A DNA stretch of 58,644 bases from a virus (IMGVR_UViG_3300006917_000003:1-58644); one strand, 5' to 3'; counted from the stretch's first letter, positions 1,430 to 54,969 are shown. Numbers and translations are program-made. The notes: generated from the sequence alone by a model not told the origin.

Positions 1430-2086
1430 CTACAGGCCGTACAGGTTCGCCCCCGGCATGATGCCAGCCATGGCGTGGCCACCACCAGTGGTGGTGTCGA
1501 TGTACATGCCGCCGCTCAGGGCGTAGTTGCCCGAGACGGGGACGTAAGCGCCGCTGCTGCCCGGGAGCAGCTTCTGCACGCCTTCCTTGACCTGCGTACC
1601 AACCGAGTCGTCGATCGCCTTGAAGACCGACAGCGCGATCGTGACCTTGGCCACGTCCTTCACCATCTGGTTCTTCATGTACTTGTGCGCGAGGAACGCA
1701 GCACCAGCGACCAACAGGTTCGGGGTGACCTTGCGGAGCGTCTCGTTCTGGATGGTGTTCGACAGGTACTTGTCAAACACGGCCTGACCGATCGAGCCGA
1801 GCGCGATGGTCGCCAGCGAGCCGACGCCCACGTTCACCAGATTGACGCCACCAAAATCGACGCCGCCGATCGACGGGTTGCGGCGCTTGCGGCGGTACGA
1901 GATCGGGTTGCGGCGCTTGTGGCTGCGCTTCGGGTTGGCCCGCTTCTTGCGGCGCGGGTTGGCCATGAGTGCCGACAGGCTGCGGTGCTTGCGCTTCGCG
2001 CCGTGGCGCTTCTTGCCACTGCGCTTCTTGCGCGGGTTGGCGACGAGGGTGCCGTGCGAGCGGCGAGCAGACAGACGCTTGATCAT
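1430..2086 (-). CDS. Basic DNA-condensing/core-membrane virion protein with repeated NP motifs (218 aa)
   Basis: Very R/K-rich N-terminus with VANP, MANP, RANP, RRNP, RRNP, then hydrophobic segments; lies directly upstream of the capsid genes. Confidence 0.65.
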   Translation of the reverse strand: MIKRLSARRSHGTLVANPRKKRSGKKRHGAKRKHRSLSALMANPRRKKRANPKRSHKRRNPISYRRKRRNPSIGGVDFGGVNLVNVGVGSLATIALGSIGQAVFDKYLSNTIQNETLRKVTPNLLVAGAAFLAHKYMKNQMVKDVAKVTIALSVFKAIDDSVGTQVKEGVQKLLPGSSGAYVPVSGNYALSGGMYIDTTTGGGHAMAGIMPGANLYGL

Positions 2087-2195
2087 CGTTCGACCTCTTG
2101 GAAAGGAGGAGAGCAAGCCGCTCTCACGACGTGCAAGCTACGCACACTTTGCAGGACGAATCAAGTGTCAAGTGAACGCGGGTTCACTTTTTGGG

Positions 2196-2966
2196 CTAGT
2201 CTACAATGCCCCGGTCTTCGACGTGCATGCCGCCACCGTTGATCACCAGCGTGCGGTAGTGGCCGTTCTTGTCCGCAGGCCCGAGGGCGTAGACGCTGGG
2301 GTAGGTGCCCGACTCCTCACCAAAGAGGTGGTAGTACTCCTCCCACTTGCCTTCCTTCTTGGCCCCGTACTCGATGCGCCGTCCGATCCCAAGCAGCACC
2401 AACGGGCCTGCCACGCCGGGGATGTCCTTGACGCTCATGGTCTTGGACTCGTCGCCCCAATGGAAGTCTTCGTACTGCTTCTTGGCGTCCTCGTAGCTCT
2501 CTTCCTGTTCTTCCGCCATGCGGATCACCCGCATGAGTTCGTTGCGGTCGTAGTCGAGCGCCAAGATCTCGTCGGGATCTTCGTACACGTCCCACTTGTC
2601 GGGGTCGAGGTTGTGGGTGTCGTTGTACTCCTGAAGGTCCTCGATGCGGCCAAAGTAGGCCCGCCCGTCATCGTAGACCGCGACCACGTCGTCGCTGGTG
2701 CCGAGCACACGGTAGGCCGCAGCCGCCGTGCTCAGATTGCGCTCCGCGTCGGGGTACTCAAAGCACCACGAAGACCCGTCGCTGACTTCGTCGTCGCCGT
2801 CGTCGTCATCGTCCTCGTCGTCGCCGTCGTCTTCACCACCCAGATCTTCGGGATTGATCTGCAAGGCTTCCGGCAGCGAGCCGTTAATCTTCTTGGTGAT
2901 CTCGTTGCGGGCTTTGGTACGCAGCGCGTCTGCAAGTCGCGAGAAGTCCTTCACAATAGCCTCCAC
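2196..2966 (-). CDS. Hypothetical protein with an acidic tract (possibly the 3' part of a frameshifted gene starting at 3244)
   Basis: ORF track 256 aa; poly-Asp stretch; globular-looking C-terminus (YEDFHWG...YHLFGEE...GIVD). Confidence 0.75.
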   Translation of the reverse strand: MEAIVKDFSRLADALRTKARNEITKKINGSLPEALQINPEDLGGEDDGDDEDDDDDGDDEVSDGSSWCFEYPDAERNLSTAAAAYRVLGTSDDVVAVYDDGRAYFGRIEDLQEYNDTHNLDPDKWDVYEDPDEILALDYDRNELMRVIRMAEEQEESYEDAKKQYEDFHWGDESKTMSVKDIPGVAGPLVLLGIGRRIEYGAKKEGKWEEYYHLFGEESGTYPSVYALGPADKNGHYRTLVINGGGMHVEDRGIVD

Positions 2967-3244
2967 AGTCCCTTGAGGGTCACGGCTACGAACGTCTTGG
3001 CCACTTCGGTGGTCACGTCCTGTAGGAAAGTCGGGTCGGGGACGACTTCCGCGTCCACCACCAGATCACGCCCGCTCCCAACAGGAGCAGGGGCAGGCTC
3101 CACTTCGTCGGTGAACTCCGCGTCCACGAACCGTTCGTGAAGGACGATTGCCCCTGCACTGGCGGGTGCTGGCGCAGCCGTGCGTCGAGGGCGCTTTGCC
3201 CGGGGGCTTGATCCACCATCGCCCACTCGCGTTCGCTTTGCCAT
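2951..3244 (-). CDS. Hypothetical protein (97 aa) overlapping the protease gene in another frame
   Basis: MAKRTRVGDGG...VDAEFTDEVEPAPAP...; protein-like composition; may join 2196..2966. Confidence 0.45.
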   Translation of the reverse strand: MAKRTRVGDGGSSPRAKRPRRTAAPAPASAGAIVLHERFVDAEFTDEVEPAPAPVGSGRDLVVDAEVVPDPTFLQDVTTEVAKTFVAVTLKGLWRLL

Positions 3245-3687
3245 ACGGGATCCACGATGACCCACTGGGTCGGGTTGTGGGGAGGCATCCCGACGCGAGC
3301 GCGAACGTGGAAGCCCCAACCCTGCTGGTCTTTCAAGATCTCGACCACCGACTGGACGCCCAGCGAGCGGATGCCGCCCACCAGCAAGATCGTAAGGTCG
3401 TCGCAGTCGCCGCCCGTGGGCACGCCTGTGTCGTAGCCCACGATCTCCTTCCACGCCCGATACACCTCGCCGTTCTCGCGGCGGTACGGGAGGCTCTCGA
3501 CGTAGGCGCACCACGCGGCCACCTGCTGGTCGGCAGGGTTGCCTGCGCCTGCAATCTTACGCAGCACAAACTCGTTGAAGTCACGATCCATCGACAGGGA
3601 GTCCGCGACTTCCGTCATGAGGATTGCCTTGTCGAGCGCCCCCTCGTCCTTGTCCCGTGTAGGCACATCTGCGTAGCCAAGCGCCAT
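3013..3687 (-). CDS. Transglutaminase-like cysteine protease with C-terminal membrane anchor (candidate virion maturation protease)
   Basis: GDCDD (Cys), FHV (His) and WVIVDP (Asp) in triad order; C-terminal LPLLLLGAGVIWWW-TRK. Confidence 0.75.
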   Translation of the reverse strand: MALGYADVPTRDKDEGALDKAILMTEVADSLSMDRDFNEFVLRKIAGAGNPADQQVAAWCAYVESLPYRRENGEVYRAWKEIVGYDTGVPTGGDCDDLTILLVGGIRSLGVQSVVEILKDQQGWGFHVRARVGMPPHNPTQWVIVDPVWQSEREWAMVDQAPGQSALDARLRQHPPVQGQSSFTNGSWTRSSPTKWSLPLLLLGAGVIWWWTRKSSPTRLSYRT

Positions 3688-3688
3688 G

Positions 3689-4870
3689 CTAGTCCTCGTC
3701 GCCCCCGCCTTCCTTCTCGATCGCGTTGAGCACCGCGCTCTCCAAGGCAGGGTTCGCCTTCAATGCTTGCATGAAGCTCTTGGCGATGCCAGTGGGATTC
3801 CGCATGGCGATCTTCTGGATGATCTCTGGCGACTGGAACGCCTGCTCGATCATGCCGTCCACCATCTCAGGCGGCAGTTGCGGCGCAGCCCCGCCGCTCT
3901 TGCCCGCGAGGATCGACGGCAACATCGAGGTCAGCATGGTCTTCATCATGCCGTCGTCTTCGTCGTCGTCATCGTCGCGGCTCGACCGCTCTGCACGCGC
4001 AGCGCGAGACTCCGCGAGCTTGTCCAGCACCACCAACAACTCCAGCGAGTCGCGCATGCCGTTGGCCTGCGGCGTGCGGTTGCGGCGCTCGTCCAGCAGT
4101 TCGCGCAGGAGCACATCGTTCACGTCCTTCTGCGGTGGCGCGGCCTGCGGCTTGGTCAGGAACGCTTGGGCAAGGCCAAGGCCAGCGGTCAGCAAGGTGT
4201 TCATGCGGTCGTCGCGGCGCTGGGCCTCTGCCTCCCGCTGCTTGCGCTCCGCTTCCTTCTGGCGCTCCTCGCGCTCTTGGCGCTCAAACTCGCGCAGCGC
4301 CAGCTTCTCCTCAAACGCCGCCTGCCGCGCTGCGGCCTCGTCGGCCCGCCGACGCTGCTCTGCACGCTCTTCTGCGGCCTGCTGCATCTGCCACCGCATC
4401 CACGCAGGCATCTCGTCCATGGCTGCCATGCCACCCAGCGGCATGGGGTTGTACGTTTCCTCCGCTGCGCGGGGGAAGGGGAGCACACCGCCGCCCCCGG
4501 GCTGACCGACTGCCGCCGAGATCAGCCGCACCTTGCGAAGCTGCTTGACCGGCTTGCCGCTGCGAGGGTCGATGGGGTAGATCTCGTACTTGCCTGCCCC
4601 ATAGTTGTCGCGCAGGTCATGGTCGAACGGACGCGAGTCCACGCGCTCCAAGAACTCCCAACCGTCTGCCGTCTGCTTGCGAACTTCCCACTCCGCGTCC
4701 TCAAAGTCCTCTTCGGTGGGCATGCGGTCGTCTTCGACAGCGCGACCAGACCCGACTTGCTTGGCGAACGAGGTCGTGAACACCACCGGGGTGCCGTCGT
4801 CGGGCAGATCGTGCGGGGCTACGGGCAACGTGGCGGAAGCAGCAGGGTTCTTCACGGTCTTGGTCGGCAT
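3689..4870 (-). CDS. Hypothetical coiled-coil protein (393 aa)
   Basis: E/R/Q-rich helical centre; AAGGAG RBS; VKNP near the N-terminus. Confidence 0.8.
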   Translation of the reverse strand: MPTKTVKNPAASATLPVAPHDLPDDGTPVVFTTSFAKQVGSGRAVEDDRMPTEEDFEDAEWEVRKQTADGWEFLERVDSRPFDHDLRDNYGAGKYEIYPIDPRSGKPVKQLRKVRLISAAVGQPGGGGVLPFPRAAEETYNPMPLGGMAAMDEMPAWMRWQMQQAAEERAEQRRRADEAAARQAAFEEKLALREFERQEREERQKEAERKQREAEAQRRDDRMNTLLTAGLGLAQAFLTKPQAAPPQKDVNDVLLRELLDERRNRTPQANGMRDSLELLVVLDKLAESRAARAERSSRDDDDDEDDGMMKTMLTSMLPSILAGKSGGAAPQLPPEMVDGMIEQAFQSPEIIQKIAMRNPTGIAKSFMQALKANPALESAVLNAIEKEGGGDED

Positions 4871-16455: not shown

Positions 16456-16501
16456 CCTTGCACGCCTGTCCGTGTATGATTGCGGGCAGGTGAGGTCGAG
16501 C

Positions 16502-18595: not shown

Positions 18596-19296
18596 CCAAG
18601 GACTTGACCATCCCCGAGTTGCCGCGCTTCCAGTACGACACGCCGACCGTGGCCGTGGACGAACTTGTGCTCGACGCCGAGGCGCTCAACGCCTACATCC
18701 GGCGAGCCGAGAGCGCCTACAACCGCGCCAACGTCAAGTACTGCATCGGGCAGGACTGCCCCGACAAGGGCAAGGGCAAGGCCGACTTGGAGGCCGACAC
18801 GGGTGCAGAACTGTACCTCGACTGCTCAGGCTTCGCTTGGTGGGCGACCTACCGGCGCGGCATCTGGGCGCACGCCCCGGGTAAAGATCCCAAGGGCAGC
18901 GAGAACTGGGTGGTCATCTCGCAGCCGCTCCCGGGCACGACTGTGCGCTACGGGGCAGCACCGGGACGCAGCTACGGGCACTCAGGCGTCATCATCGCAC
19001 CGGGGCCAGACGGCAACTTCCAGACGCTCGACTCGACCAACGAAGGCCCGCCCAAGGCGTCCGAGGGGTCGATCGTCTACCGTCCAGACGGGCGCAAGAA
19101 GTGGCTGGCACCCAACCGCCCCAACCCGCAGTTCCTTGTGTCGAGCGAGGCGATCATCTCCAAGGGCGGGCAGCCCTACCCGCGCAAGCAGAACCTGCTG
19201 CTGGCTGCGGCCAAGCACCCGATTGCCACGCTCAGTCTGGCGACGGTTGCACTGATCGGACTGGGCTACTACCTCTACCGCAGGCAGACAGCATGA
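18592..19296 (+). CDS. NlpC/P60-like cysteine peptidase with C-terminal membrane anchor
   Basis: LDCSGFAWW and GHSGVI; C-terminal TLSLATVALIGLGYYLY-RR; ATGA coupling. Confidence 0.75.
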   Translation: MTKDLTIPELPRFQYDTPTVAVDELVLDAEALNAYIRRAESAYNRANVKYCIGQDCPDKGKGKADLEADTGAELYLDCSGFAWWATYRRGIWAHAPGKDPKGSENWVVISQPLPGTTVRYGAAPGRSYGHSGVIIAPGPDGNFQTLDSTNEGPPKASEGSIVYRPDGRKKWLAPNRPNPQFLVSSEAIISKGGQPYPRKQNLLLAAAKHPIATLSLATVALIGLGYYLYRRQTA

Positions 19297-43644: not shown

Positions 43645-43657
43645 GGTGTGCCTTCCT

Positions 43658-43789: not shown

Positions 43790-43791
43790 GG

Positions 43792-44226: not shown

Positions 44227-44229
44227 GGC

Positions 44230-46656: not shown

Positions 46657-46665
46657 GGTGGCACC

Positions 46666-47043
46666 TTACTTGCGGGAGCCAAAGTAGTAGCCCACCGCCA
46701 GACCTACCACGAACAGTGGGATCGAGATCGTCATCACCGACTTCTGGACGCTGCCCTTGACCGTCTCGATCGTCTCTTGGCCCTTGGGCGAGGCGACGAA
46801 CTTCTGGCCGGTCTTGCTCAGTACGTCGGAGAAGAACTCCGTGCGATCCGCACGCTCCTTCGATCCGGCAGGGCCACCTTGGATGGTCTTGTTGATCGCC
46901 TCTGCAAGGGCGTTGGCGATCGGGTCGCCGCCCAGCGGGTCACCCGGGCCAGCCAAGTTGCCCGCCATGTAGCCACGCGGGAAGTTGGTGCGCGGAGGGG
47001 CTTGGGCAGGCCCAAGGATCTCGACGTAGTCAGGCTGGATCAT
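46666..47043 (-). CDS. Virion membrane protein
   Basis: C-terminal ISIPLFVVGLAVGYYF-GSRK. Confidence 0.72.
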   Translation of the reverse strand: MIQPDYVEILGPAQAPPRTNFPRGYMAGNLAGPGDPLGGDPIANALAEAINKTIQGGPAGSKERADRTEFFSDVLSKTGQKFVASPKGQETIETVKGSVQKSVMTISIPLFVVGLAVGYYFGSRK

Positions 47044-47993
47044 CGCTTCTCCCCTTGCATGACGTAGCCGACGAACGCGGCAGGGTCAGTGATGTGCGGC
47101 ATGTGGCGGCGAACGTAGCGCATCTTCTTGCGGAAGGTGTCAGCGCCGGCCCTGTGCATGGTCTGGATCAGGTGTCGCTTACCCGCCTTGGTCAGGCCGG
47201 GGTTCTGCTTGGCCGACTCACGCTTCTTGCTGTACTCGTCAGCCGCCTGCTTGGCCTTCTCTGCCGCGTGCTTGGCACCCGCGCCGGCTGCGCGAGCCAG
47301 CGAGTGGACGCTCGCCCGCACCGTCTCCGACCGCCCATAAGCGTAAGCGCCGCCGGCCAAGAGCGCGGTGGTGAGCCACGTCGGGTTGCGCTTGGGGTTG
47401 CGACGATAGGGCGCTGACACCGACGTGTAGCCCAGCCGCTTGTTGGCCGACACCTTGTCGGCCCACTCCTTGGCACCCTCGTAGGTGGCAAACTTCAACT
47501 CGCCAGTGTAGTCGCCGGAAAGCCACCTAGTCGTCTTGCCAAGGTCTTGGACGTATGTGACCGCCCACGGGTAGATACGCTTCATCGCTTCATCGTATTC
47601 GTCGTAGTCGGGGTTGCGGTGCTTGGCATCGCGCTTCTCGACCAAGTGCGCCACCGGCAGGCCCACGGCCTCGCGGCGCTCGATCTCGCGCTCCAGCGAG
47701 CGGCCGGGGTTCTTGCGGGTCTTGAGGGCGTACACCTTGCGAACTCGGCTCTCGATCTCTGGCCAGCGCGAGGCAGCCACGCCCAAGTCGGCGGTCCGGC
47801 CAAGGTACACGCTATCGGTGGAGTCGCCCACCCTGCCGGGATGCGGCAGGAACACATACCAGCCGCGATCGTCGCCGTGCCGGCTGTCGTTGCCGATGTA
47901 GCCAAAGGTGATGCCGGGGAGTTCCTTGGACAGGTGCCCGATGGCGTCACTCAGCGAGGCGAGCGACGAGGGGTTGCGCTTGTACTTGGACAT
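47040..47993 (-). CDS. Basic multi-module protein with six NP motifs
   Basis: KRNP, RKNP, HRNP, RRNP, KRNP, KQNP; GAGGA RBS. Confidence 0.78.
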   Translation of the reverse strand: MSKYKRNPSSLASLSDAIGHLSKELPGITFGYIGNDSRHGDDRGWYVFLPHPGRVGDSTDSVYLGRTADLGVAASRWPEIESRVRKVYALKTRKNPGRSLEREIERREAVGLPVAHLVEKRDAKHRNPDYDEYDEAMKRIYPWAVTYVQDLGKTTRWLSGDYTGELKFATYEGAKEWADKVSANKRLGYTSVSAPYRRNPKRNPTWLTTALLAGGAYAYGRSETVRASVHSLARAAGAGAKHAAEKAKQAADEYSKKRESAKQNPGLTKAGKRHLIQTMHRAGADTFRKKMRYVRRHMPHITDPAAFVGYVMQGEKR

Positions 47994-48012
47994 GGTCTTC
48001 CTCGCTGTCGGC

Positions 48013-49623
48013 TCAGTAGTCGTTCGCCTCGTAGCTCATGTATCTGGGCTTGAATCCCGCCTTGAGCGCAGCGAGATACTCCTTGAGCGTCTTGCCGTGG
48101 GCCTTGGCTTCCAGTTGGAAGGCCACCAACCCGGGATCAGGAGGCGATGCAGTGATCCAATCTGGCTTGTCTGCTGGCTTCAAGGTGAAGCGGGTGGCGT
48201 CCTTGCCACCATAGGAGCCTCCCCGACCGACCTTGTCTGCCTTGGTGCGCGCCGTAAGCTCGTTGACCGGCTTGTCAAACTCCAGCCAATTATCATCCCA
48301 GCCAAGGTAATCGCTTACTTTCCAACTACTAGCCTTGCCAAGATCTCGTTTGGGCGGCACCTTGGCCTCTCCACCAAAGGAGAAGCCGTAAGCCAGCGGG
48401 GGGTTCTTGCGCTTGCGGGACTTGGTGTACCCAACGTGGGCGTGAAGGGGCAACTGCCAGCGGTGCTTGGCGAGCTTGACGGCGCAGGAGGTGACGGCAC
48501 GGGCCGGCGGCGGGGGAACGTGCCACCGCTTGCCGATCAGGATGGTGCCGCACTCGCTGACCGACCGCGACGGCTCGGCGTCGAACAGCGACTCCTGCCG
48601 CTTGGACGCCTTCTTCTTGCCGTTGCGCTGCAAGCCGCCCATGGCGCGGTGCCACGCGGGGGTCATTTCGCCGCTGGGGGCGACAAACGGGATCTGCACC
48701 GACGTGTCCCAGCCGTCTTTGCTGCTGAACTGGATGGTGTGGTCACCCACTTTCGTCACCGTGTACTTGCCGACCTTGGAGCCGACACGCAGCGGCTTGG
48801 TGTCCATGGCGTGTGCAAGCACAGCCTCTTGAAGCGTGGCGGGGTTGCGCTGGAAGCCCACCATGCTCGCGCTGGGGTTCTTGCTGGTGGCATAGTGCCG
48901 CTTCACCCACGCGGACACCGCTGCCTTGGCGGCGGCCTTCGTCGCGTGTTTGTGTGAGTCAACCGTCTCCCAAGGCGTCCAAACGCCAGACACCGCCTCG
49001 CAGCGATCAGCATGGTAGCTACCGCCCTCTCGGATGATGCGTGCCGCACCCAAGATCCCGCCTTTGCCGCGCTCGATGTAGGCGACCTCAATGCTCGCAG
49101 GAGCACCAGCCGGCGTGTGCCACTTCGTCAACTTGACGCTTGCGGGGTTGCGCTGGAAGCCCACCATGTGCGCGGTGGGGTTCTTGGCGATCCAGTTGCG
49201 CGGGGCCTCCTTGAGGACGGCCCGAATCACCACGTCGCCGGTCTTGCCGCCGGTTTCGCGCAGGTGGATCTTGTCGCCCGACCACCGTGCGATGCCGCTG
49301 CCGCCCATGTAGTTGCCGCTCAGGGTGTCGCCGTCGCTGGTCAGCAGCTTGCTGCTCGCCGCACGGTGCTCGGTGAACGCACGAATGACCGCCTTGTCGG
49401 TCTTGGTCAGGCTCGGGTTGCGCTGGAAGCCCACCATGCTCGCGCTGGGGTTCTGCGTCGTGTAGCGCATCGAGGCCATCGCCACGATCTTGCCGCTCTT
49501 GCCAGCCTCGGCCTTGGCCTCCTTGAGCGTCGTGCAGTAGCACTTGCGAGCGCCCGTGGGCGACAGGACGAGGAACTTGAACCCGTCGCGGGCGGCTTTC
49601 TTGTCGGCAGAAGTCAGGTGCAT
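48013..49623 (-). CDS. Multi-module protein with repeated NPxAxMVGFQRNP linkers
   Basis: Three linker copies plus RKNP separate unrelated segments; AAGGAG RBS. Confidence 0.8.
   Translation of the reverse strand: MHLTSADKKAARDGFKFLVLSPTGARKCYCTTLKEAKAEAGKSGKIVAMASMRYTTQNPSASMVGFQRNPSLTKTDKAVIRAFTEHRAASSKLLTSDGDTLSGNYMGGSGIARWSGDKIHLRETGGKTGDVVIRAVLKEAPRNWIAKNPTAHMVGFQRNPASVKLTKWHTPAGAPASIEVAYIERGKGGILGAARIIREGGSYHADRCEAVSGVWTPWETVDSHKHATKAAAKAAVSAWVKRHYATSKNPSASMVGFQRNPATLQEAVLAHAMDTKPLRVGSKVGKYTVTKVGDHTIQFSSKDGWDTSVQIPFVAPSGEMTPAWHRAMGGLQRNGKKKASKRQESLFDAEPSRSVSECGTILIGKRWHVPPPPARAVTSCAVKLAKHRWQLPLHAHVGYTKSRKRKNPPLAYGFSFGGEAKVPPKRDLGKASSWKVSDYLGWDDNWLEFDKPVNELTARTKADKVGRGGSYGGKDATRFTLKPADKPDWITASPPDPGLVAFQLEAKAHGKTLKEYLAALKAGFKPRYMSYEANDY
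48842..49452 (-). repeat. Three 38-bp direct repeats (48842-48879, 49145-49182, 49415-49452) encoding the linker
   Basis: gggttgcgctggaagcccaccatg(ct/tg)cgcg(c/g)tggggtt; the outer two copies are identical. Confidence 0.92.
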
Positions 49624-49679
49624 GGTCGTCTCCTTGAGCGTACTCTACAGCGGAAAGTTCAAGTGCGCCAGATGGGATC

Positions 49680-50066
49680 TCACTGGTGCAGGTGCTTGGG
49701 TCGAGGTGCGCGGCCCCGGTCGAGGTTCTGCACGTCGCGCTCGTCGTACAGGATGGGTTGGCCCAGCGCCTCAAACGCCAGCCGGTCGGCCCGCCGCTCC
49801 GCGCCACGGCGGTCAGAGTGCTCGTCGGCGGCGTGGCCAAGCTCATGCGCCAAGATGCCCGCCACGCGGCCTTCGGGCTGCTCTAGCAGCCGCTCGACAA
49901 CGTACACGGTGCGCTCGTCGGGGATGTACCAGCCAAAGTCGCGGTAGCCGCTGCGGGGCAGGTAGTGGCGATCCACCACCACCAGCCGCACGTCGCCCAC
50001 CGGGAACCGCTGTGCGAAGCGTTTCCGCAGGCGCAGGAACAGCCTGTGCGCCCCGGCCCGGGTCAT
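49680..50066 (-). CDS. Small zinc metallopeptidase-like protein (HExxH)
   Basis: ILAHELGH...AERRAD; start revised. Confidence 0.65.
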   Translation of the reverse strand: MTRAGAHRLFLRLRKRFAQRFPVGDVRLVVVDRHYLPRSGYRDFGWYIPDERTVYVVERLLEQPEGRVAGILAHELGHAADEHSDRRGAERRADRLAFEALGQPILYDERDVQNLDRGRAPRPKHLHQ

Positions 50067-50068
50067 GG

Positions 50069-50512
50069 TCAGTCCCGCAGAGCGAAGAACGCGGCAGCGG
50101 CGATGCCCACAGGCAACAGCCAGCCCATGCCGCCCTTGTCCTTGCCAGCGACGTAGTTGTCCAGCGCCTTCTTGACCGCATCGCGGAACGCCGTGGCGCT
50201 CTCGACCGTCCAAGCCGCGCCCATGGCAGTGGCCTTCTGGGTGTCGTAGTCGGCCTGCTTCAGCGCACCCGCAGTGATCAGCGTGGCAGCGTAGCCGTCA
50301 GCTTCCGCGATGATAGCGGGGATCGGATCGTAGAAGGTGGGCTTGATCCCAAACTTCACTTGCGCTTCTGACTGCGAGACGGTCTGCTTCTCGGGGGTCT
50401 TGAACTCGATCTCCTTCTGGATCTCAAGGGCCGACTTCTCGCTCGTCTTCTTCGGAGGAGCGCCCGCCAAAGCGTGGCTGTAGGAACCGTAGTTGTCACC
50501 TTCAAGCATCAT
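50069..50512 (-). CDS. Virion membrane protein
   Basis: Start MMLEG; C-terminal WLLPVGIAAAAFFAL. Confidence 0.72.
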   Translation of the reverse strand: MMLEGDNYGSYSHALAGAPPKKTSEKSALEIQKEIEFKTPEKQTVSQSEAQVKFGIKPTFYDPIPAIIAEADGYAATLITAGALKQADYDTQKATAMGAAWTVESATAFRDAVKKALDNYVAGKDKGGMGWLLPVGIAAAAFFALRD

Positions 50513-50520
50513 TGGGAACC

Positions 50521-53448
50521 TCACTTCTTGCTCTGGGAGTATGCCACAGCGCCGCCAAGGAGCAACCACAACCACGGGAAAGGCTTCTTTTCTTCTTCGG
50601 AGATAACGAGCTTTGTCGCCACCTCTTCGTTCTTCTTGATCGTCTCCGATACAGCGGGAGGGATTGGCAGATTGTAGTCTTGGCCCAGCGCCTGCAATGC
50701 TTCGCCGGATCCAGCAACGTAGTCAAGGGCGTTTTCCACCTGCTCCTTGGTCTTGTCGTTCTGCTCCTTGGTCTCCTCGGCCTTCGCTTTCTCCTTGTCG
50801 GGCATGAGCGGGACGACGACGATCGTGCCGCCGCCAAGGTTGAGGCTGATCTTGTCGTCCTTGTGCTTGCGAGCCTCCCCCAAAGCCTTGCTCGACAGGT
50901 CCAAGTTCGACAGCACACCGCCCTTGTCGGTGGTGTTGTCTAGCAGACGGTTGCGCCGCGCACCGCGCAGACTGGCAAGCGCCGCCATCTTGGCCTGCAA
51001 TTCGCTAATCTTTGCCGACACGGCGTTGAGTGCGGCAATCGCCGTCTGGTCGCCCGCGTCGACTCGCTCCTTGAGCTTGGCGTACTCCACCAGCAGTTCG
51101 TTGAGCTTGTAGGCCAGCGAACCCTTCTTGGGATTCTTGGCGCACTCGGTCATGGTCTGCTTGTAATAATCGAGCTTGGCTTGCGGGTCGGTCAGCGTCT
51201 TGGGCGGGTCGGGGATGCTGCACCCGTACAGTTCGATTGCCATGTCGTTGAGCGCCACGATCATGTCCTCGGACAAGTCTTGAGACTCGCTTGCCAACTG
51301 CGAGGCCATCATGCCCAAGAGCAGTTGAGACTTGACCTCGCTCCGCGCATCAACATACGCCTTCTGCGGCTCGGTCAGTCCAGCCGTCTGAGCCTTGGCC
51401 TCTTCGGTAGCCTGCTTGTGCAGTTCCATCACCTTGTCGGCCACCAGCTTGAAGCCAAGCGGTATCGGCATGGGTTTGCTCTTGTCAGGCTGCCACGCAT
51501 AGAGCTTGGCCACGTTGCCACTCAGCTTGCTTGCGCGGGGTGGGGTGAACACTTTACCTGCAAAGAAGTCGGCCTTTTCGCTAATGGTAACAGCCATCTC
51601 TAGCTGCTTCTTGGTGTAGGTGGGGACAACGATGCTCTCGACCGGCCACGCGCCCATCATCTCCAGCAGCTTGTCTGGGTCTAGCTTCTCGCTGCCAAGG
51701 CAGTCCTTGTTGATCTGGGCAACACGGGATTGGAAGTTGGCGTAAGCAGTGGTGCCTTTGACTTCGGAGTACCACTTGTTCACCAGCAGCGTCAGCTTGG
51801 GTGCTACATCGGTGATCACCTTGCCTGACGGGGTCGTGTACGGTTCGTAGGTCCAGCCGACCTCCATCGGGGGCAAGAAGCAGACGAACTCAATCGCTGC
51901 CACCAGCATATCCCGGGCAGTCTTGACCTTGGCCCACGGGCCACCCTCTTCCTTGACGATGGGGTAGGTTGGCTTGTTGGGGTCGGTGTTGTCCTTCTTG
52001 GCGTAGAGAGAGGCTTGCATCAGCGTGAGGCGTTTGGCGTCTTGTGCAATGCGAATCAAAGGCAGAATAATGTCGGCCACTTGGTGAGGCGTTTTGGCAA
52101 CGCCGCCATACTCGCTTGACCACTCGGGATCTTCAGACAGGCCCTTCCAGATGAACATACCCAGCGTCTTTTCGGAGTACAAGCGATTGGTCTCGTCCTC
52201 GAACGGCGGGTGGAAAGCGGGTGGGCAAGCCCCCTTCTCTGGGCAGACCGGGATCTTGGCTCCCGGCTGCTTGGTCTTGAAGGCGTCCACGAACGGCTTC
52301 CCGCCGATACGATCCCACTGGTGGTGCAAGAAGTCGGCCAGAGCAATCGACGGCTCGATGTACTCGGCGTTTGCGCTCGCGGCCAGCTTCTCGTAGCCGA
52401 TCGATGCGACCGGCACAGACAGCCCGGGGAGCGTCTCGCCCCACTTGTCAGCCGGCACGTCCCAGCCAGAGCCTTGCACAGCTGAAAGCGTACCAGAGAA
52501 GAGAGGGTTGGTGGTCACGACCACGTTGGCGTCGCTGCCCTTGTAGGCGTACAGCGAGTGCAGCTTATAGTCGGCCAAGCCCGGGACGCTTGCACCGTAA
52601 ACTAGCGCCTGCTTGTTGCCGCTAGGGTTGTACTGCAAGTAGGGCATGTAGAGATCGGCAATCGGGAACTCCAGCGAGTCCACGCTCACCATCTTCTTGG
52701 CGTCTTGATCGTACTGCTGAATCGTGATCGGCTTTGCGACCTTGGGGTCGCATGCGACAGGGCCAAGCCACTGCACAGCGTTGATCTTGCTGAACGCCTC
52801 CGACAGCAGGAAGCCGATCCCGCCAGCTTCGCCAGCAACGGTCACCTGCGCCTTCATGTACTCAACTTCAGCCGCCTTCGCGTTCTTGACCAGCGTAGGG
52901 ATGCTCGATACCACGTTGCGCCAAGTGTCGCCAGTCAGCGACCCCTTGGGCGGGAGCCACGACAGCGTCTGGTCCACCAGCTTCTGAACCTGCGCTTGGG
53001 TGCCGTTCGGCCCCGGGTAGTCTTGCCAGTTGCAAGCCAGCGCGTAGACGAGGTTGAGAAGTTCCCAGCACCGCAAGCGGGTCTGGAACGCCAGCAGGTC
53101 AAACGCCCGCTTGTCGGCGGCTTCAGACACGATGCCGTAGAGGTCAACGCCCGGGGCTTGGCCGCTCTTCTGCGTCAACGGATTGAAGGGTGCAAGGTAC
53201 TTGGCCAGCGACACTGCCGACAGTGCCTGCATGGCCTTGGGCGAAAGCACGGCTGCCAGCTTGGCTGCATCCTCGGGCTTCAAGCCAGTCGGCAGGGCGT
53301 CGGGTGTCGAAAGGATCTCCTTGCCACCGATCGGCAAGTAGGTGTCGTACACGTCCTTGACGACGCCGCCTGCGCCAGCACCTGCGTCTGCGCCCTTGCC
53401 CCCGGGGGGCAAGCCGTTCAAGTTCCCCTCGTTGTTGAACAGCAACAT
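50521..53448 (-). CDS. Large (975 aa) membrane-anchored virion protein
   Basis: AGGAG RBS; C-terminal coiled coil and KKPFPWLWLLLGGAVAY TM. Confidence 0.78.
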   Translation of the reverse strand: MLLFNNEGNLNGLPPGGKGADAGAGAGGVVKDVYDTYLPIGGKEILSTPDALPTGLKPEDAAKLAAVLSPKAMQALSAVSLAKYLAPFNPLTQKSGQAPGVDLYGIVSEAADKRAFDLLAFQTRLRCWELLNLVYALACNWQDYPGPNGTQAQVQKLVDQTLSWLPPKGSLTGDTWRNVVSSIPTLVKNAKAAEVEYMKAQVTVAGEAGGIGFLLSEAFSKINAVQWLGPVACDPKVAKPITIQQYDQDAKKMVSVDSLEFPIADLYMPYLQYNPSGNKQALVYGASVPGLADYKLHSLYAYKGSDANVVVTTNPLFSGTLSAVQGSGWDVPADKWGETLPGLSVPVASIGYEKLAASANAEYIEPSIALADFLHHQWDRIGGKPFVDAFKTKQPGAKIPVCPEKGACPPAFHPPFEDETNRLYSEKTLGMFIWKGLSEDPEWSSEYGGVAKTPHQVADIILPLIRIAQDAKRLTLMQASLYAKKDNTDPNKPTYPIVKEEGGPWAKVKTARDMLVAAIEFVCFLPPMEVGWTYEPYTTPSGKVITDVAPKLTLLVNKWYSEVKGTTAYANFQSRVAQINKDCLGSEKLDPDKLLEMMGAWPVESIVVPTYTKKQLEMAVTISEKADFFAGKVFTPPRASKLSGNVAKLYAWQPDKSKPMPIPLGFKLVADKVMELHKQATEEAKAQTAGLTEPQKAYVDARSEVKSQLLLGMMASQLASESQDLSEDMIVALNDMAIELYGCSIPDPPKTLTDPQAKLDYYKQTMTECAKNPKKGSLAYKLNELLVEYAKLKERVDAGDQTAIAALNAVSAKISELQAKMAALASLRGARRNRLLDNTTDKGGVLSNLDLSSKALGEARKHKDDKISLNLGGGTIVVVPLMPDKEKAKAEETKEQNDKTKEQVENALDYVAGSGEALQALGQDYNLPIPPAVSETIKKNEEVATKLVISEEEKKPFPWLWLLLGGAVAYSQSKK

Positions 53449-53456
53449 GGCGGCTC

Positions 53457-54113
53457 CTACCCAAGACCTTTGAAACCCTTGGCGACGTACTGCTTGTAGG
53501 CAGCTTCCATCTTGTCGTCGTACCCGCGCTGGCCCTTGCCGTTGTAGCCCCGGGCAAACGTTGTCCAGTCGCCCTTGCGGGCAGCGTCCTCCAGCCCCTT
53601 GTTCTGCACGAAGTCGAAGAAGCCACGGATCTGTGCCTCCTCGCTGGTCGAGTAGGCGTCAAACATGGCTTGCACGGTGGGGAACTTCACCAGCTTGTGG
53701 TTGAAGCCCATGATCTGGGCCGACCCCATGCTGATCGACTTCATTGCGGCCTCGCGGTCAAGAGCAGCGGCGCGGGCAAAGTTGTCCCACTCGGCCTTCT
53801 GGCCAGCACGCACAACGCCAACATCCTTGCCGCCTGAGTACTCGCGGAAGACGTGCGGCTCAAAGCGAATGATCATGCGACCGTCTTTGCCAAAGCCCTT
53901 GCCGCCAGACTCCACAGTGAAGATTGCCAGCGCCACGGCCTCGGGGATGCCCCGCTCGGCTGCCAACGCCCTGATCTGCTTGATCCGCTCTTCCTTGCTC
54001 AGGATCTCTGCGACCATCTCCTTGACCTGCTTGCCATAGGTGACCACCAGCAGCAGCGCCGCGCCACCCAGCGCCCACCACAACCATGGCTGGACTTCTG
54101 GATTGCGCTTCAT
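53457..54113 (-). CDS. N-acetylmuramidase (DUF3380-like) with N-terminal RNP and TM; likely virion-associated lysin
   Basis: VESGG.GF, IRFEPHVF, SMG..QIMGFNH, W..FARGYNG, YD.KM. Confidence 0.85.
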   Translation of the reverse strand: MKRNPEVQPWLWWALGGAALLLVVTYGKQVKEMVAEILSKEERIKQIRALAAERGIPEAVALAIFTVESGGKGFGKDGRMIIRFEPHVFREYSGGKDVGVVRAGQKAEWDNFARAAALDREAAMKSISMGSAQIMGFNHKLVKFPTVQAMFDAYSTSEEAQIRGFFDFVQNKGLEDAARKGDWTTFARGYNGKGQRGYDDKMEAAYKQYVAKGFKGLG

Positions 54114-54114
54114 A

Positions 54115-54969
54115 CTACCGCCCGTGCAGCTTGGCGGCGGCGTCCTTCATGCTCAGACGCTCGCCGTCGATCACGGCGTAGCCCTTGGACAGCTTACGCA
54201 CGCGGTGGGAGCCAGCCTGCACCGTCTTGCCGATCGGCAGTCGGGAAAGCATCGAAGCGAAGATCTTCTCCTCTTCCTTCTCATGGGCGAGGTGGGATTT
54301 GGACATGCCGTTGCGCTTCTTGGGATTCAGCACAGCCGGGACGTAGCGCGGGTCGGGGTTGCGGCTCTTGTAGCCGATGGCTTCGTAGACCTGCGCTTTG
54401 GTCATGCCACCCTTGAGGTAGCTCTTCCAGCACGACTCGTAGTAGTCCCGCTTGATGTCGCCAGAGTAGCCACGGGACAGCTTGCTCTCCTGCTCGTTGA
54501 TCGCGGCCCGCACGACAGCCCGGTCTCCAGCGGACGGCTGGTTGAGCGGATTCTGGCTCATGTACCGTTCGGCTTCAAACTTGCTGACCACCCCGCGCCG
54601 TTGCAGGTACGCCAGCGCCGCATTGAATCGCTCTCGGGCGTAGGTGTCGCGCTTGAGGAAGTCCCGCATGGCCTCGCCTTGGCGGCGACTCTGGGAAAGG
54701 GTAGTCAGCGCGTTTCGCGCCTCCTGCAAGGCTACACGGGGATCTAGACGCTCAATACGCTCCCAAGAGTACTCGATGCCAGTCTTGGTAGGGTTGCGGC
54801 GCTTCTTGGGGCCGCAGTGCGGGTTGCCGCACGCGCCCGCGCAGCCGCAGCCGCCGTTGCGCTTCTTGGTCTTGCGGAACTTGAAGCCGCCTTCCACCTG
54901 TTTGACCTCCGCGATGGAGTCGCACTGGTAGGCTTGGCCGTTGGGGCTGTGGGCGATGAACTTGGCCAT
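54115..54969 (-). CDS. Basic multi-module protein with NP/NG motifs
   Basis: KRNG, RRNP, SQNP, SRNP, VLNP, KRNG. Confidence 0.75.
   Translation of the reverse strand: MAKFIAHSPNGQAYQCDSIAEVKQVEGGFKFRKTKKRNGGCGCAGACGNPHCGPKKRRNPTKTGIEYSWERIERLDPRVALQEARNALTTLSQSRRQGEAMRDFLKRDTYARERFNAALAYLQRRGVVSKFEAERYMSQNPLNQPSAGDRAVVRAAINEQESKLSRGYSGDIKRDYYESCWKSYLKGGMTKAQVYEAIGYKSRNPDPRYVPAVLNPKKRNGMSKSHLAHEKEEEKIFASMLSRLPIGKTVQAGSHRVRKLSKGYAVIDGERLSMKDAAAKLHGR

What the first reader, a model, noticed from the sequence alone, without database searches (positions are those of the whole stretch)
1430..54969. Genome-wide [R/K]-N-P peptide tag that starts proteins and delimits unrelated modules: candidate cargo-packaging or polyprotein-processing system
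Seen: by manual count about 28 [RK]NP motifs (plus ANP, QNP, LNP and RNG variants) cluster in about 11 proteins: 1430, 3689, 16502, 19293, 20130, 21054, 21872, 47040, 48013, 53457, 54115. I saw none in the helicases, PolA or recombinase. The motif sits at N-termini (MKQRNP, MAGRRNP, MSKYKRNP, MKRNP) or at domain boundaries: before topoisomerase IB, before a GNAT, before GP88, and on both sides of the zeta kinase. It is also repeated in the basic core protein beside the capsid genes. Established: some phages route internal head proteins using short targeting or cleavage sequences (for example the T4 capsid-targeting sequence with protease gp21). Inference: NP is a maturation-protease site and/or a nucleoid/capsid docking tag that loads swappable effectors into a tailless virion. 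I know of no description of this motif system.
Basis: partly seen in the sequence, partly recalled or inferred. Interest (0 to 1): 0.93.

Follow-up and report, generated by a model that had tools for sequence, protein, structure and literature searches.

The report
Arg-Asn-Pro junction tag in modular phage proteins
A three-residue motif (Arg/Lys-Asn-Pro) is massively over-represented in one class of proteins of a novel, probably tailless phage; it marks the exact joints at which protein modules and short leader peptides are swapped between related phages, and it is most likely a processing or addressing signal read by a small phage protease.

Summary
The window is a complete 58.6-kb phage genome. 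RNP is its most over-represented tripeptide (23 seen, 2.0 expected). [RK]NP occurs 30 times against about 3.4 in shuffles (maximum 11). 29 of the 30 lie in two gene blocks. Six proteins carry the motif in their first 10 residues. The signal is at protein level, not DNA level.

A related complete genome (G001, 58,052 nt) shows the same enrichment: 24 against 3.5. Homologues from other assemblies share modules that begin and end at NP. Cassettes are present or absent exactly at these joints. One basic leader ending in RNP heads a zeta-like kinase here and topoisomerase IB in G001.

A 128-aa M48-like zinc protease lies directly upstream of the modular protein in 3 of 3 loci. In G001 it is fused to five RNP-delimited modules.

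My best reading is a proteolytic junction/leader signal of virion-associated, swappable cargo proteins (confidence 0.45). Cleavage and packaging are not shown. The rivals are an uncleaved docking tag, Asn-Pro self-cleavage, and a passive linker. I call it a new variant of known phage processing and polyvalent-protein systems, in an undescribed virus group.

The parts
1430..2086 (-). Basic NP-repeat protein (218 aa). The N-terminal 75 residues are highly basic and hold 5 NP (ANP x3, RNP at aa 59 and 69). A hydrophobic C-terminal domain follows. It lies next to the capsid-like genes.
   Evidence: The G001 orthologue (56% identity) keeps both RNP sites.
3013..3687 (-). Transglutaminase-like (papain-fold) Cys/His/Asp enzyme with a C-terminal membrane anchor. 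This is the second candidate protease.
   Evidence: Pfam Transglut_core, E 9e-4, below the curated cut-off. Sequence. The G001 orthologue is 63.5% identical.
3689..4870 (-). Scaffold-like protein (393 aa) with an E/R-rich coiled-coil stretch. KNP at aa 7 and RNP at aa 357, which is 36 residues from the C-terminus.
   Evidence: The C-terminal site AMRNP is conserved in G001.
16472..18595 (+). GP88-domain protein. A small N-terminal domain ends in KVRNP (aa 63), before the GP88 domain.
   Evidence: Pfam GP88, E 8e-11. The L010 relative has the same architecture with KEQNP at the joint, and its gene lies inside the structural block.
19293..20129 (+). Two-module protein with leader MKQRNP. Its second module starts after ANP (aa 173).
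   Evidence: Residues 178-278 match the whole 105-aa G001 protein 33344-33661 at 72% identity.
20130..21044 (+). Zeta-toxin-like kinase with basic leader MAGRPLRRMRLRNP. It has LNP-RRNP-VRNP after the kinase domain.
   Evidence: Pfam Zeta_toxin, E 1e-32. Start and leader. The same leader heads topoisomerase IB in G001.
21054..21863 (+). GNAT-like protein. RNP at aa 111 separates an N-terminal module from the acetyltransferase part.
   Evidence: Pfam Acetyltransf_1, E 3e-4. Sequence.
21872..23656 (+). Topoisomerase IB with leader MAGRRNP...QRNP and two extra N-terminal modules. Each module ends in KVRNP (aa 226 and 351).
   Evidence: Pfam Topoisom_I 380-573. G001 encodes only the leader plus the catalytic module, with RNP at the same joint.
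47040..47993 (-). Modular protein (317 aa) with 5 [RK]NP: the leader MSKYKRNP, two internal joints, and RRNPKRNP just before a membrane helix.
   Evidence: Its modules recur in P0007 and P0008 and in the G001 protease fusion.
48013..49623 (-). Bead-on-a-string modular protein (536 aa). A conserved 58-aa N-terminal domain is followed by modules separated by three 11-residue spacers ([QK]NP[ST]A[SH]MVGFQRNP) and a KNP.
   Evidence: Ten homologues share the N-terminal domain but carry different NP-delimited modules.
49680..50066 (-). Mini-M48-like zinc metalloprotease (128 aa; HELGH plus AERRAD). This is the prime candidate for the enzyme that reads the motif.
   Evidence: Pfam Peptidase_M48, E 3e-5, above the cut-off. 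PHROG metallo-protease, E 3e-6. Both motifs are invariant in 4 of 4 sequences. Synteny and fusion.
53457..54113 (-). Membrane-anchored N-acetylmuramidase with N-terminus MKRNP followed by a TM helix. It is distinct from the lysis-cassette endolysin at 28314-28964, which has no motif.
   Evidence: Pfam Muramidase, E 7e-41. Pfam M15 endolysin. G001 has an unrelated enzyme at this position with the same MPRRNP-plus-TM start.
54115..54969 (-). Modular protein (284 aa) with 5 NP: 2 RNP, plus GNP, QNP and LNP. It contains a Cys-rich mini-module.
   Evidence: The module at aa 56-141 is 71% identical to P0010 186-271 and is bounded by NP in both.
653..1402 (-). Capsid-like jelly-roll protein. Its paralogue runs from 625 across the circular junction to 58388. 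This is context for the virion type.
   Evidence: AlphaFold2 with a 52-sequence alignment: pLDDT 88.9. Weak Foldseek matches to jelly-roll capsids. 62 homologues.
50521..53448 (-). 975-aa tail-anchored protein with a single KNP (aa 771). This is probably a background occurrence.
   Evidence: KNP is kept in P0002 but reads KTP in P0003 and NNP in G001.

Best explanation
[RK]NP, usually preceded by further basic residues, is a short linear processing signal. It is shared by one functional class of proteins in this phage group. That class holds virion-associated and accessory 'cargo' proteins: muramidase, topoisomerase IB, zeta-like kinase, GNAT, GP88, the scaffold-like and basic core-like proteins, and strings of small modules.

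Precursors are made as leader-plus-module or module-module-module chains. A phage-encoded protease then recognises the basic-NP joints. The most likely enzyme is the mini-M48 zincin at 49680-50066; the membrane-anchored transglutaminase-like Cys enzyme at 3013-3687 is the alternative or a second enzyme. Cleavage would trim the leaders and separate the modules, during particle assembly or after delivery. Because each module is autonomous once released, cassettes can be gained, lost and exchanged at these joints.

Shown: the enrichment, its protein-level nature, its restriction to a gene class, its conservation in relatives, the coincidence with module boundaries, the portable leaders, and the protease synteny and fusion.

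Inferred: that the joints are cut, by which enzyme, at which bond, and that the products are packaged.
For: 1. Enrichment. RNP is the top tripeptide in both complete genomes: 23 vs 2.0 in the window and 18 vs 1.85 in G001. [RK]NP is 30 vs 3.4 and 24 vs 3.5, with a shuffle maximum of 11 in each.

2. Protein level.
- 20 of 23 CGCAACCC copies are in the RNP frame on the coding strand of genes on both strands.
- K alternates with R.
- The CGC preference in RNP (21 of 23) is a general Arg-Asn codon-pair effect: 31 of 39 in the window and 28 of 34 in G001 for R-N not followed by P.

3. Gene class. 29 of 30 motifs lie in two blocks. The NP proteins are the mosaic part of an otherwise collinear genome pair.

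4. Module joints.
- P0012 and P0013 differ by cassettes bounded exactly by NP.
- Window modules recur in other proteins, bounded by NP.
- 68% of 174 internal BLAST alignment ends lie within 6 aa of an NP, against a random mean of 22% and a maximum of 32%.

5. Portable leaders. MAGRPLRR.R.R..RNP heads the zeta kinase here and topoisomerase IB in G001. A [KR]RNP start followed by a TM helix (MKRNP here, MPRRNP in G001) heads two unrelated wall hydrolases.

6. Protease link.
- The mini-M48 gene lies directly upstream of the modular gene in the window, L001 and L002.
- In G001 it is fused to five RNP-delimited modules.
- HELGH and ERRAD are invariant in 4 of 4 sequences.

7. Sites that make sense for maturation.
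- An RNP 36 aa from the C-terminus of the scaffold-like protein, conserved in G001.
- Five NP in the basic head of the core-like protein.

8. Asymmetry typical of a recognised site. The 8 residues upstream have net charge +1.4 (window) and +1.9 (G001). Downstream the values are about 0 and +0.9.

9. Concept precedent. Phage polyvalent proteins are predicted to be cut into units by an embedded zincin peptidase (PMC5512222, passages read).
Against: - No direct evidence of cleavage or of virion incorporation.
- Pro next to the presumed scissile region is disfavoured by most proteases (recalled general knowledge).
- Leaders of only 3-5 residues (MKRNP, MKQRNP) give little reason for trimming. They fit a recognition tag at least as well.
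- Conservation is incomplete. Of 10 window sites that fall in segments alignable to G001, 6 are kept as [RK]NP and 7 as xNP. Three of the misses are in weak alignments.
- The preceding residue is variable in homologues (R 30, Q 9, A 5, K 3 of 62 NP), so the recognised element may be NP plus context rather than [RK]NP.
- The Pfam M48 match covers only about 40 of 186 profile positions. The best solved structure match has E 0.12.
- Only two complete genomes and a few fragments are available.
- Many of the alignment ends counted repeat one boundary, the end of the shared N-terminal domain, so they are not independent.
- The gene calls are my own heuristic.
Confidence: 0.45

Rival explanations
1. 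An uncleaved address or docking tag. Basic-NP is a short linear motif that binds a virion component (packaged DNA, the inner membrane face, the scaffold-like or a capsid protein). It recruits each tagged module into the particle, with no proteolysis at the motif.
For: - Very short N-terminal tags and tags placed directly before membrane helices: MKRNP+TM, RRNPKRNP+TM and G001 MPRRNP+TM.
- Strongly basic upstream context.
- NP repeats in the basic core-like protein.
- Restriction to structural and accessory gene blocks.
- A portable leader on different cargo.
Against: - It does not by itself explain why unrelated modules are strung together with double-NP spacers.
- It does not explain why a protease is syntenic with them and fused to them.
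- No binding partner has been identified.
- This rival is compatible with the best explanation if tags are bound first and cut later, as in T4 (recalled).
Confidence: 0.25
2. A passive joint. Asn-Pro is a helix N-cap or turn that makes a good domain start. The basic-NP linkers persist because in-frame recombinants at such flexible linkers are viable. The motif would mark the history of module shuffling and have no biochemical reader.
For: - Many NP are followed by helix-like segments with an acidic residue two or three positions on: NPDAMLE, NPETRQ, NPDYDE, NPALESAV. The capping rule itself is recalled.
- Module boundaries coincide with NP.
- The three 45-nt spacer-coding repeats are 89-100% identical and could support recombination (family D14).
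Against: - Ordinary helix capping cannot give a roughly nine-fold excess confined to one gene class, with 1 motif in the other 9361 aa.
- It cannot explain the requirement for R/K and an upstream basic run.
- It cannot explain leaders at the extreme N-terminus of single-domain enzymes, where no linker is needed.
- It cannot explain retention of the motif across about 35-50% sequence divergence.
Confidence: 0.15
3. Self-cleavage. The Asn-Pro bond breaks by asparagine cyclisation, as in FlhB/YscU (NPTH), the anti-sigma factor RsgI and reovirus mu1. The strings would then fall apart without a protease.
For: - Asn-Pro is the scissile pair in those systems. Basis: abstract of PMC10328401; titles and abstracts of T3SS and FlhB papers in the listing, which also counts their NPTH mentions; the reovirus case is recalled.
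- NP, rather than the preceding residue, is the invariant core in homologues.
Against: - Known cases need a folded catalytic context (recalled). Here the flanks are unrelated from site to site, and several sites are 3-6 residues from the N-terminus.
- There are 0 NPTH and 0 NPGP in either proteome.
- No conserved residue follows the Pro.
- The conserved basic upstream context and the linked protease are left unexplained.
Confidence: 0.07
4. A chance, composition or DNA-level signal (for example a recombination, uptake or packaging octamer) that merely happens to read RNP.
For: CGCAACCC occurs 23 times in the genome. By my own arithmetic from base composition the expectation is about 4. CGC is used for 21 of 23 motif arginines.
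Against: - 20 of the 23 octamers are in one of six frames, always on the coding strand, for genes on both strands.
- KNP (AAGAACCC) is also enriched.
- The third Pro base varies.
- The CGC bias equals that of any Arg-Asn pair.
- No shuffle reaches the observed count: maximum 11 against 30.
- Homologues from other assemblies keep the peptide.
Confidence: 0.01

Closest known systems
Phage T4 capsid-targeting sequences and prohead protease gp21; giant-phage (phiKZ/SPN3US) prohead protease with its ejection proteins
   Same: Many head-internal and ejected proteins share a short signal. The signal is read by one phage protease that removes N-terminal propeptides and cuts scaffold and core proteins. 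The cargo proteins are diverse. (For SPN3US and T4 I saw only the listing and abstracts. The motifs L-x-E and A-x-E are recalled.)
   Different: - The motif here is basic-Asn-Pro, not x-x-Glu.
- No S77-, U9- or U35-type prohead protease family was hit in the 50 of 91 ORFs scanned with Pfam.
- The candidate enzymes are a mini-M48 zincin and a transglutaminase-like Cys enzyme.
- The virus shows no tail, portal or terminase families and has jelly-roll capsid-like proteins.
- The motif also joins strings of unrelated modules.
Polyvalent proteins of phages and conjugative elements with an embedded zincin peptidase (MPTase) (Iyer et al. 2017, PMC5512222; passages read)
   Same: - Multi-domain proteins of mobile elements with extensive mosaicism, often next to virion genes.
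- They are predicted to travel with the DNA and to be cut into functional units by a zincin-like metallopeptidase domain in the same polypeptide.
- G001 2923-4539 has exactly this protease-plus-modules layout.
   Different: - No defined junction motif is mentioned in the passages I read.
- Here the peptidase matches Pfam M48, not an MPTase model.
- It is usually a separate 128-aa gene.
- The modules are mostly small (about 40-150 aa) and of unknown function.
- The same joint also forms N-terminal leaders on separate genes across the genome.
Adenovirus protease with core and precursor proteins (pVII, pre-Mu, pVI, pTP)
   Same: A non-tailed jelly-roll-lineage virus in which one protease cuts several precursors at a short consensus. 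The precursors include very basic DNA-condensing proteins that yield short basic peptides (recalled, no call). The basic NP-repeat protein 1430-2086 would behave similarly.
   Different: - Different consensus, (M/I/L)xGx-G (recalled).
- Different protease fold.
- A eukaryotic host.
- No homology was detected or tested.
Asparagine-Pro autoproteolysis (FlhB/YscU NPTH; RsgI anti-sigma factors; reovirus mu1)
   Same: An Asn-Pro pair sits at the breaking point (PMC10328401 abstract; listing).
   Different: Those sites lie in conserved folded domains. Here the flanks are variable and often terminal, there are 0 NPTH in the proteome, and an upstream basic run is needed.
Tailless internal-membrane phages and archaeal viruses with two single-jelly-roll capsid proteins (Sphaerolipoviridae, Simuloviridae, Thermus phages)
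   Same: - Paralogous small capsid-like proteins with a beta-sandwich model.
- Many small membrane proteins in the structural block.
- An integrase (family descriptions from the abstracts).
   Different: - The genome is about 58 kb, against 16-31 kb (abstracts).
- No packaging ATPase was recognised.
- Foldseek matches are weak: no PDB hit at E <= 1e-3.
- No sequence-family hit.

Membership tests
T4-type capsid-targeting / prohead-protease system | A prohead serine protease of the gp21 / herpes-assemblin type encoded next to scaffold and capsid genes | tested here: not met
   No such Pfam or PHROG family in the ORFs scanned: 50 of 91 by Pfam and 20 by PHROGs. The 41 unscanned ORFs are all small.
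T4-type capsid-targeting / prohead-protease system | A shared short N-terminal signal on internal head proteins, removed after incorporation | tested here: inconclusive
   Shared N-terminal leaders ending in RNP exist on 6 proteins. Neither removal nor incorporation can be tested with these tools.
Polyvalent proteins with MPTase (Iyer et al. 2017) | Several unrelated domains in one polypeptide of a phage or plasmid, with mosaic architectures among relatives | tested here: met
   48013-49623 and its 10 homologues, and G001 2923-4539.
Polyvalent proteins with MPTase (Iyer et al. 2017) | An embedded zincin-like MPTase domain | tested here: inconclusive
   A zincin (HExxH plus downstream Glu) is fused in G001 and adjacent elsewhere. 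It matches Pfam M48, and no MPTase model appeared at E <= 0.01.
Polyvalent proteins with MPTase (Iyer et al. 2017) | Delivery into the host cell with the DNA | not testable with these tools
   Needs virion and infection proteomics.
Peptidase family M48 | An HExxH zinc site with a third Glu ligand in a downstream E-x-x-A-D-like motif; sequence match above the curated threshold | tested here: met
   Pfam PF01435: 24.2 bits against a cut-off of 20.3, E 3.3e-5. HELGH and AERRAD are invariant in 4 of 4 sequences. Assigning ERRAD as the third ligand is my inference from recalled M48 motifs.
Peptidase family M48 | The full-length catalytic domain (about 186 profile positions, usually membrane-associated) | tested here: not met
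   Only profile positions 47-89 of 186 are matched, in a 128-aa protein without a hydrophobic segment. The best PDB match, 3c37, has E 0.12.
Asparagine peptide lyases (FlhB/YscU type) | An NPTH motif inside a conserved folded domain | tested here: not met
   0 NPTH in 18,270 aa (window) and 18,325 aa (G001). No FlhB-like family hit.
2A-like ribosome-skipping peptides | A C-terminal NPGP with an upstream D-x-E-x motif | tested here: not met
   0 NPGP in either proteome. The consensus is recalled.
Two-jelly-roll-capsid, internal-membrane viruses (Sphaerolipoviridae-like) | Two capsid proteins with a single vertical jelly-roll fold | tested here: inconclusive
   - A paralogue pair is present (D20, 21).
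- The AlphaFold2 model is a beta-sandwich with pLDDT 88.9.
- The best Foldseek hits are jelly-roll capsids, but weak: PDB E >= 5e-3 with TM <= 0.3; BFVD 13 hits at E <= 1e-3 with TM 0.16-0.44.
Two-jelly-roll-capsid, internal-membrane viruses (Sphaerolipoviridae-like) | A packaging ATPase of the FtsK/HerA (A32-like) type | tested here: not met
   A Walker-A scan of the called ORFs and of all six frames finds only the D5-like helicase, the zeta kinase and chance-looking hits. A divergent ATPase could be missed.

The most novel reading that the evidence does not exclude
The basic-Asn-Pro joint is a genome-wide address-and-cut code in a new family of tailless, membrane-containing phages. Any module placed behind a basic-NP leader or between NP joints would be loaded into the particle and released as an independent small protein. 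This would give these phages a plug-and-play cargo system for host-takeover and anti-defence effectors (kinase, acetyltransferase, topoisomerase, wall hydrolases, many unknown modules) that is delivered with the DNA. It would be the first such system outside tailed phages. The most radical version has the Asn-Pro bond self-cleaving in an unstructured context, making it a portable bacterial counterpart of 2A-type separators.
Probability: 0.25. Interest if true: 0.92.

Novelty: new variant of a known kind. Interest (0 to 1): 0.8.

Why it matters
- Size of the signal. A three-residue signal about nine times over expectation, confined to one gene class and conserved in relatives, is a rare, clean case of a virus-wide short linear motif found from sequence alone.
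- If the joints are cut. This would define the specificity of a new minimal zincin, or of a transglutaminase-like protease. It would show that a dsDNA phage uses polyprotein logic with freely exchangeable cassettes.
- Unknown modules. It would flag some dozens of small modules of unknown function as probable delivered effectors, which makes them candidates for anti-defence or host-takeover factors.
- Virus group. The virus itself is undescribed: about 58 kb, temperate-looking, with jelly-roll capsid-like proteins, many tail-anchored membrane proteins, and no recognisable terminase, portal or tail. Only one other complete genome was found in the collections searched.
- Possible tool. A defined, compact cleavage or address tag could also be useful as a tool.
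- Testability. The question can be tested directly with virion N-terminomics and a two-plasmid co-expression assay.

Tried and rejected
**Rejected explanations**
- DNA-level explanation. Rejected by the octamer frame and strand analysis and the codon-pair control.
- Composition artefact. Rejected by the within-protein shuffles.
- Internal-repeat inflation. The three 11-aa spacers in 48013-49623 are repeats (D14). Removing two of them still leaves 26 motifs in 13 proteins.

**Searches for relatives that found nothing**
- tblastn of the 975-aa protein against phage records.
- The search for related loci with that protein or its alignment A1 in viral contigs, metagenome contigs and genome contigs.
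- A2 in viral contigs and A6 in viral contigs.
- A8 returned only G001 again.

**Other steps that led nowhere**
- PHROGs gave almost nothing for the structural proteins.
- AlphaFold2 of 653-1402 without an alignment failed (pLDDT 29.1). It was repeated with alignment A3.
- The Protein Atlas search for the 58-aa N-terminal domain gave only scores below 0.8, so no lead. For 653-1402 it gave unnamed viral clusters, with only weak (0.76-0.77) PRD1 P2/P3-labelled rows.
- Complex prediction of the mini-M48 (alignment A7) with residues 40-100 of the modular protein and zinc returned 'no answer' (score 0.01, mark 0.32, controls not run). This is neither for nor against binding.

**Literature**
- Searches for a described Arg-Asn-Pro or Asn-Pro phage processing motif found none.
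- These searches cover only the held open-access library. No supplementary files were consulted.

**Not done**
Genome-wide enrichment was therefore tested in only one further complete genome.
- 41 of the 91 window ORFs, all small, were not scanned against Pfam.

Full report
**What the window is**

The 58,644-nt window is the whole record. Its first 123 nt are repeated exactly at its end (D13), so it is a complete circular or terminally redundant genome of about 58.5 kb with 64% G+C.

I called genes with a codon-usage and GC3 heuristic of my own: 91 ORFs, 18,270 aa. An earlier attempt miscalled the left end.

The gene map, from Pfam and PHROGs on 50 of the 91 ORFs:
- A rightward replication block: helicases at 4936 and 12318, a PD-(D/E)XK nuclease at 9746, a sigma-70 region-4 protein at 11709, and PolA at 14617.
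- A leftward D5-like primase-helicase at 7061.
- An early region from 24.6 to 41 kb, with at least 10 copies of one strong sigma-70-type promoter and a near-identical ribosome-binding leader (D1-D11).
- An integrase at 32398.
- A lysis cassette with an M15 endolysin at 28314.
- One long leftward block that runs from 4870 across the junction down to 43462.

The long leftward block holds the following:
- two pairs of paralogous small proteins;
- a scaffold-like coiled-coil protein;
- at least ten proteins with a single terminal membrane helix;
- no portal, terminase, tail or HK97-capsid family.

With a 52-sequence alignment, AlphaFold2 models 653-1402 as a beta-sandwich (pLDDT 88.9). Its Foldseek neighbours are jelly-roll capsid proteins, but only weakly so. 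There was no PDB hit at E <= 1e-3, and the best were circovirus, SPV1 and HHIV-2 capsids. BFVD gave 13 hits at E <= 1e-3 with TM 0.16-0.44.

A tailless, membrane-containing virion is therefore a reasonable but unproven reading. No Walker-A packaging ATPase was found.

**The observation**

[RK]NP occurs 30 times in 13 ORFs. Within-protein shuffling gives a mean of 3.4-3.5 and never more than 11 (5000 shuffles; 2000).

Among all tripeptides RNP ranks first: 23 against 2.0 expected, z = 14.9. The next tripeptide has z = 7.1.

The residue before NP is R in 23 and K in 7 of 76 NP dipeptides.

29 of the 30 motifs lie in the leftward late block (19 in 6531 aa) or the 16.4-23.7 kb rightward block (10 in 2378 aa). 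The remaining 57 proteins (9361 aa) hold one.

Six proteins carry the motif in their first 10 residues, against 0.15 expected. Most of these start codons have a credible Shine-Dalgarno sequence.

None of the 10 motifs in the five Pfam-annotated cargo proteins lies inside the matched domain.

The eight residues upstream of the motif are hydrophilic and carry net charge +1.4. The eight downstream are neutral.

**Protein level, not DNA level**

CGCAACCC occurs 23 times. 20 of these are the in-frame RNP codons, always on the coding strand, for genes on both strands. KNP uses a different word.

CGC encodes 21 of the 23 motif arginines, against a genome share of 0.51. This looked like a DNA constraint. 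However, any Arg-Asn pair not followed by Pro uses CGC in 31 of 39 cases here and in 28 of 34 cases in G001. It is an ordinary codon-pair bias.

**Relatives**

The group is rare.
- The 975-aa protein has two homologues among 5.8 billion clusters.
- The modular protein 48013-49623 has ten.
- The capsid-like protein has 62 representatives.

Only one other complete genome could be fetched: G001, an IMG/VR record of 58,052 nt with terminal repeats.

In G001, 46 of the 91 window proteins have a match. The structural and replication core is collinear and aligns full length at 45-77% identity.

In G001, RNP is again the top tripeptide (18 against 1.85, z = 11.9). [RK]NP occurs 24 times in 10 of 87 proteins, against a shuffle mean of 3.5 and a maximum of 11.

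**The motif marks the joints of swappable modules**

Homologues of 48013-49623 share only the first 58 residues, which end in QNP. They then carry different segments separated by RNP, KRNP or the 11-residue spacer NP-x-A-x-M-[VL]-G-x-Q-R-NP. Each has 5-10 NP per 322-437 aa.

P0012 and P0013 are near-identical except for cassettes that are present or absent exactly between NP sites.

Modules move between proteins while keeping their NP borders:
- Window 54115 aa 56-141 equals P0010 186-271.
- Window 48013 aa 68-155 equals P0005 134-221.
- The membrane-helix module of 47040 is in P0007 and P0008.
- The C-terminal module of 47040 is in the G001 protease fusion.

Between the two complete genomes, the tagged proteins match only module by module:
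- Window 19293 aa 178-278 equals a whole 105-aa G001 protein. The joint is an ANP.
- Window topoisomerase IB has two extra N-terminal modules, each ending in KVRNP. G001 has only a leader plus the catalytic module, with RNP at the same joint.

Of 174 internal BLAST alignment ends among 29 such proteins, 68% lie within 6 aa of an NP. Random placement gives 22%, with a maximum of 32% in 2000 trials. Many of these ends repeat the same boundary, so the test is illustrative rather than independent.

The zeta kinase, GNAT, GP88 protein and muramidase have no counterpart in G001 at all. An 8.3-kb fragment of a more distant relative (L010, capsid-like protein 51% identical) has a GP88-like gene inside the structural block. 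It has the same small N-terminal domain, ending in KEQNP where the window has KVRNP.

**Portable leaders**

The zeta-kinase gene most probably starts at 20130 with MAGRPLRRMRLRNP. G001's topoisomerase IB starts with MAGRPLRRLRRRLVRNP.

The window muramidase starts with MKRNP followed by a membrane helix. At the same position G001 has an unrelated enzyme that starts with MPRRNP plus a membrane helix.

So the same short basic leader, ending in RNP, is attached to different cargo.

**A linked protease**

ORF 49680-50066 is a 128-aa zincin.
- It matches Pfam M48 with E 3.3e-5, above the curated cut-off, but over only about 40 profile positions.
- It matches a PHROG metallo-protease family with E 2.7e-6.
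- The best solved structure match is an M48 peptidase at E 0.12.

It lies immediately upstream of the modular gene in the window and in both metagenome fragments that reach that far, L001 and L002.

In G001 the same domain is the N-terminus of a 538-aa protein. Its remainder is five segments delimited by RNP, the first RNP directly after the protease domain.

HELGH and AERRAD are invariant in all four sequences.

Its Pfam match has E 9e-4, below the cut-off. By eye, a Cys/His/Asp set and a C-terminal membrane anchor are visible in the sequence. It sits next to the scaffold-like gene and is conserved in G001 at 63.5% identity. It remains a second candidate.

**Reading**

The best-supported explanation is that basic-NP is a processing signal of a class of virion-associated and accessory proteins. 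One phage protease reads it, trims leaders and separates modules. This is what allows cassettes to be exchanged freely at the joints.

Sites that would make biological sense are:
- the conserved RNP 36 residues from the C-terminus of the scaffold-like protein;
- the five NP in the very basic head of 1430-2086, next to the capsid-like genes.

The conceptual precedent is the polyvalent proteins of phages and plasmids, predicted to be cut by an embedded zincin (PMC5512222, passages read). A second precedent is the T4 and giant-phage prohead proteases (listing and abstracts; their motifs are recalled).

Cleavage, the scissile bond, the enzyme and packaging are all inferred.

**Evidence against this reading**
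- Pro near the scissile bond is unfavourable for most proteases.
- The leaders are very short.
- Conservation is incomplete: 6 of 10 alignable sites are kept.
- The preceding residue varies in homologues.
- The data set is small.

**Rivals**
- An uncleaved docking tag (0.25).
- A passive linker or helix-cap left by module shuffling (0.15).
- Asn-Pro self-cleavage (0.07). There are no NPTH or NPGP motifs, the flanks are variable, and some positions are terminal.
- Chance or a DNA signal (0.01).

**Novelty**

I found no description of an Arg-Asn-Pro or Asn-Pro junction system in phages in four literature searches of the held library. No supplements were seen.

The kind of system is known: a shared short signal on phage internal proteins, and polyvalent proteins with a zincin. 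The motif, the candidate enzymes, the bead-on-a-string use and the virus group are new. I therefore rate it a new variant of a known kind, with high interest.

Noticed in passing
window 24609-41193: At least 10 copies of one strong sigma-70-type promoter (TTGACAAGGAACGTCAGATCTGCAATACT). It is followed by a purine-rich leader and a near-identical ribosome-binding site (AGGAGGTGTGAGATG) in front of small early genes. This is a very uniform early-gene expression cassette.
   Followed up: no
window 1-123 and 58522-58644: An exact 123-nt direct repeat at the two ends, so the genome is complete (circular assembly overlap or terminal redundancy). The capsid-like gene 2-625(-) continues into 58388-58642(-).
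   Followed up: partly
window 50521-53448 (-): The 975-aa protein has strictly conserved termini in homologues of only 29-57% identity: the start MLLF[ND]NE and the C-terminal membrane anchor WLWL[LI]LGGAVAYSQSKK. Similar W/G-rich helices occur in the muramidase and in 47040-47993.
   Followed up: no
window 43462-56327 and 3013-3687 (-): At least ten late proteins end in a single hydrophobic helix followed by a few basic residues, i.e. they are tail-anchored. This suggests a protein-rich internal membrane.
   Followed up: partly
whole window: No terminase, portal, tail or FtsK/HerA-type packaging ATPase was recognised. The only clear Walker-A motifs are in the D5-like helicase and the zeta-like kinase. 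How the genome is packaged is unexplained.
   Followed up: partly
window 11709-12176 (+): The phage encodes a sigma-70 region-4 protein (Pfam E 2e-14). It may drive middle or late transcription. No late promoter motif was searched for.
   Followed up: no
window 54115-54969 (-) aa 38-60; G001 52692-53735; P0005: Cys-rich mini-modules interleaved with NP (for example GGCGCAGACGNPHCG and CDCHKNPSSCACAGTCRNPACKCGG). They may be metal-binding or disulfide knots inside the modular proteins.
   Followed up: no
window 16472, 21054, 21872, 48013, 54115 and homologues: A recurring small strand-helix-strand unit often precedes an RNP joint. Its pattern is hydrophobic strand, then G, then x-[FY]-x-[ST]-x-x-E-A-x-x-A. 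It may be a common carrier or adaptor domain. This was judged by eye only.
   Followed up: no
L007 2923-4539 (G001): The protease-fused modular protein contains two copies of Pfam DUF6900 (E 2e-27). G001 also has an SNF2-type helicase (55041-57467) at the end of its structural block and a GHKL-ATPase-like 821-aa protein in place of the window's accessory genes.
   Followed up: no
both genomes: A strong codon-pair bias. Arg before Asn is CGC in about 80% of cases, against about 50% overall.
   Followed up: yes
L010 about 6170-6330: The related MAG contig carries a masked run (read as N/X) inside its GP88-like gene. The bin's taxonomic label may not be the host.
   Followed up: no
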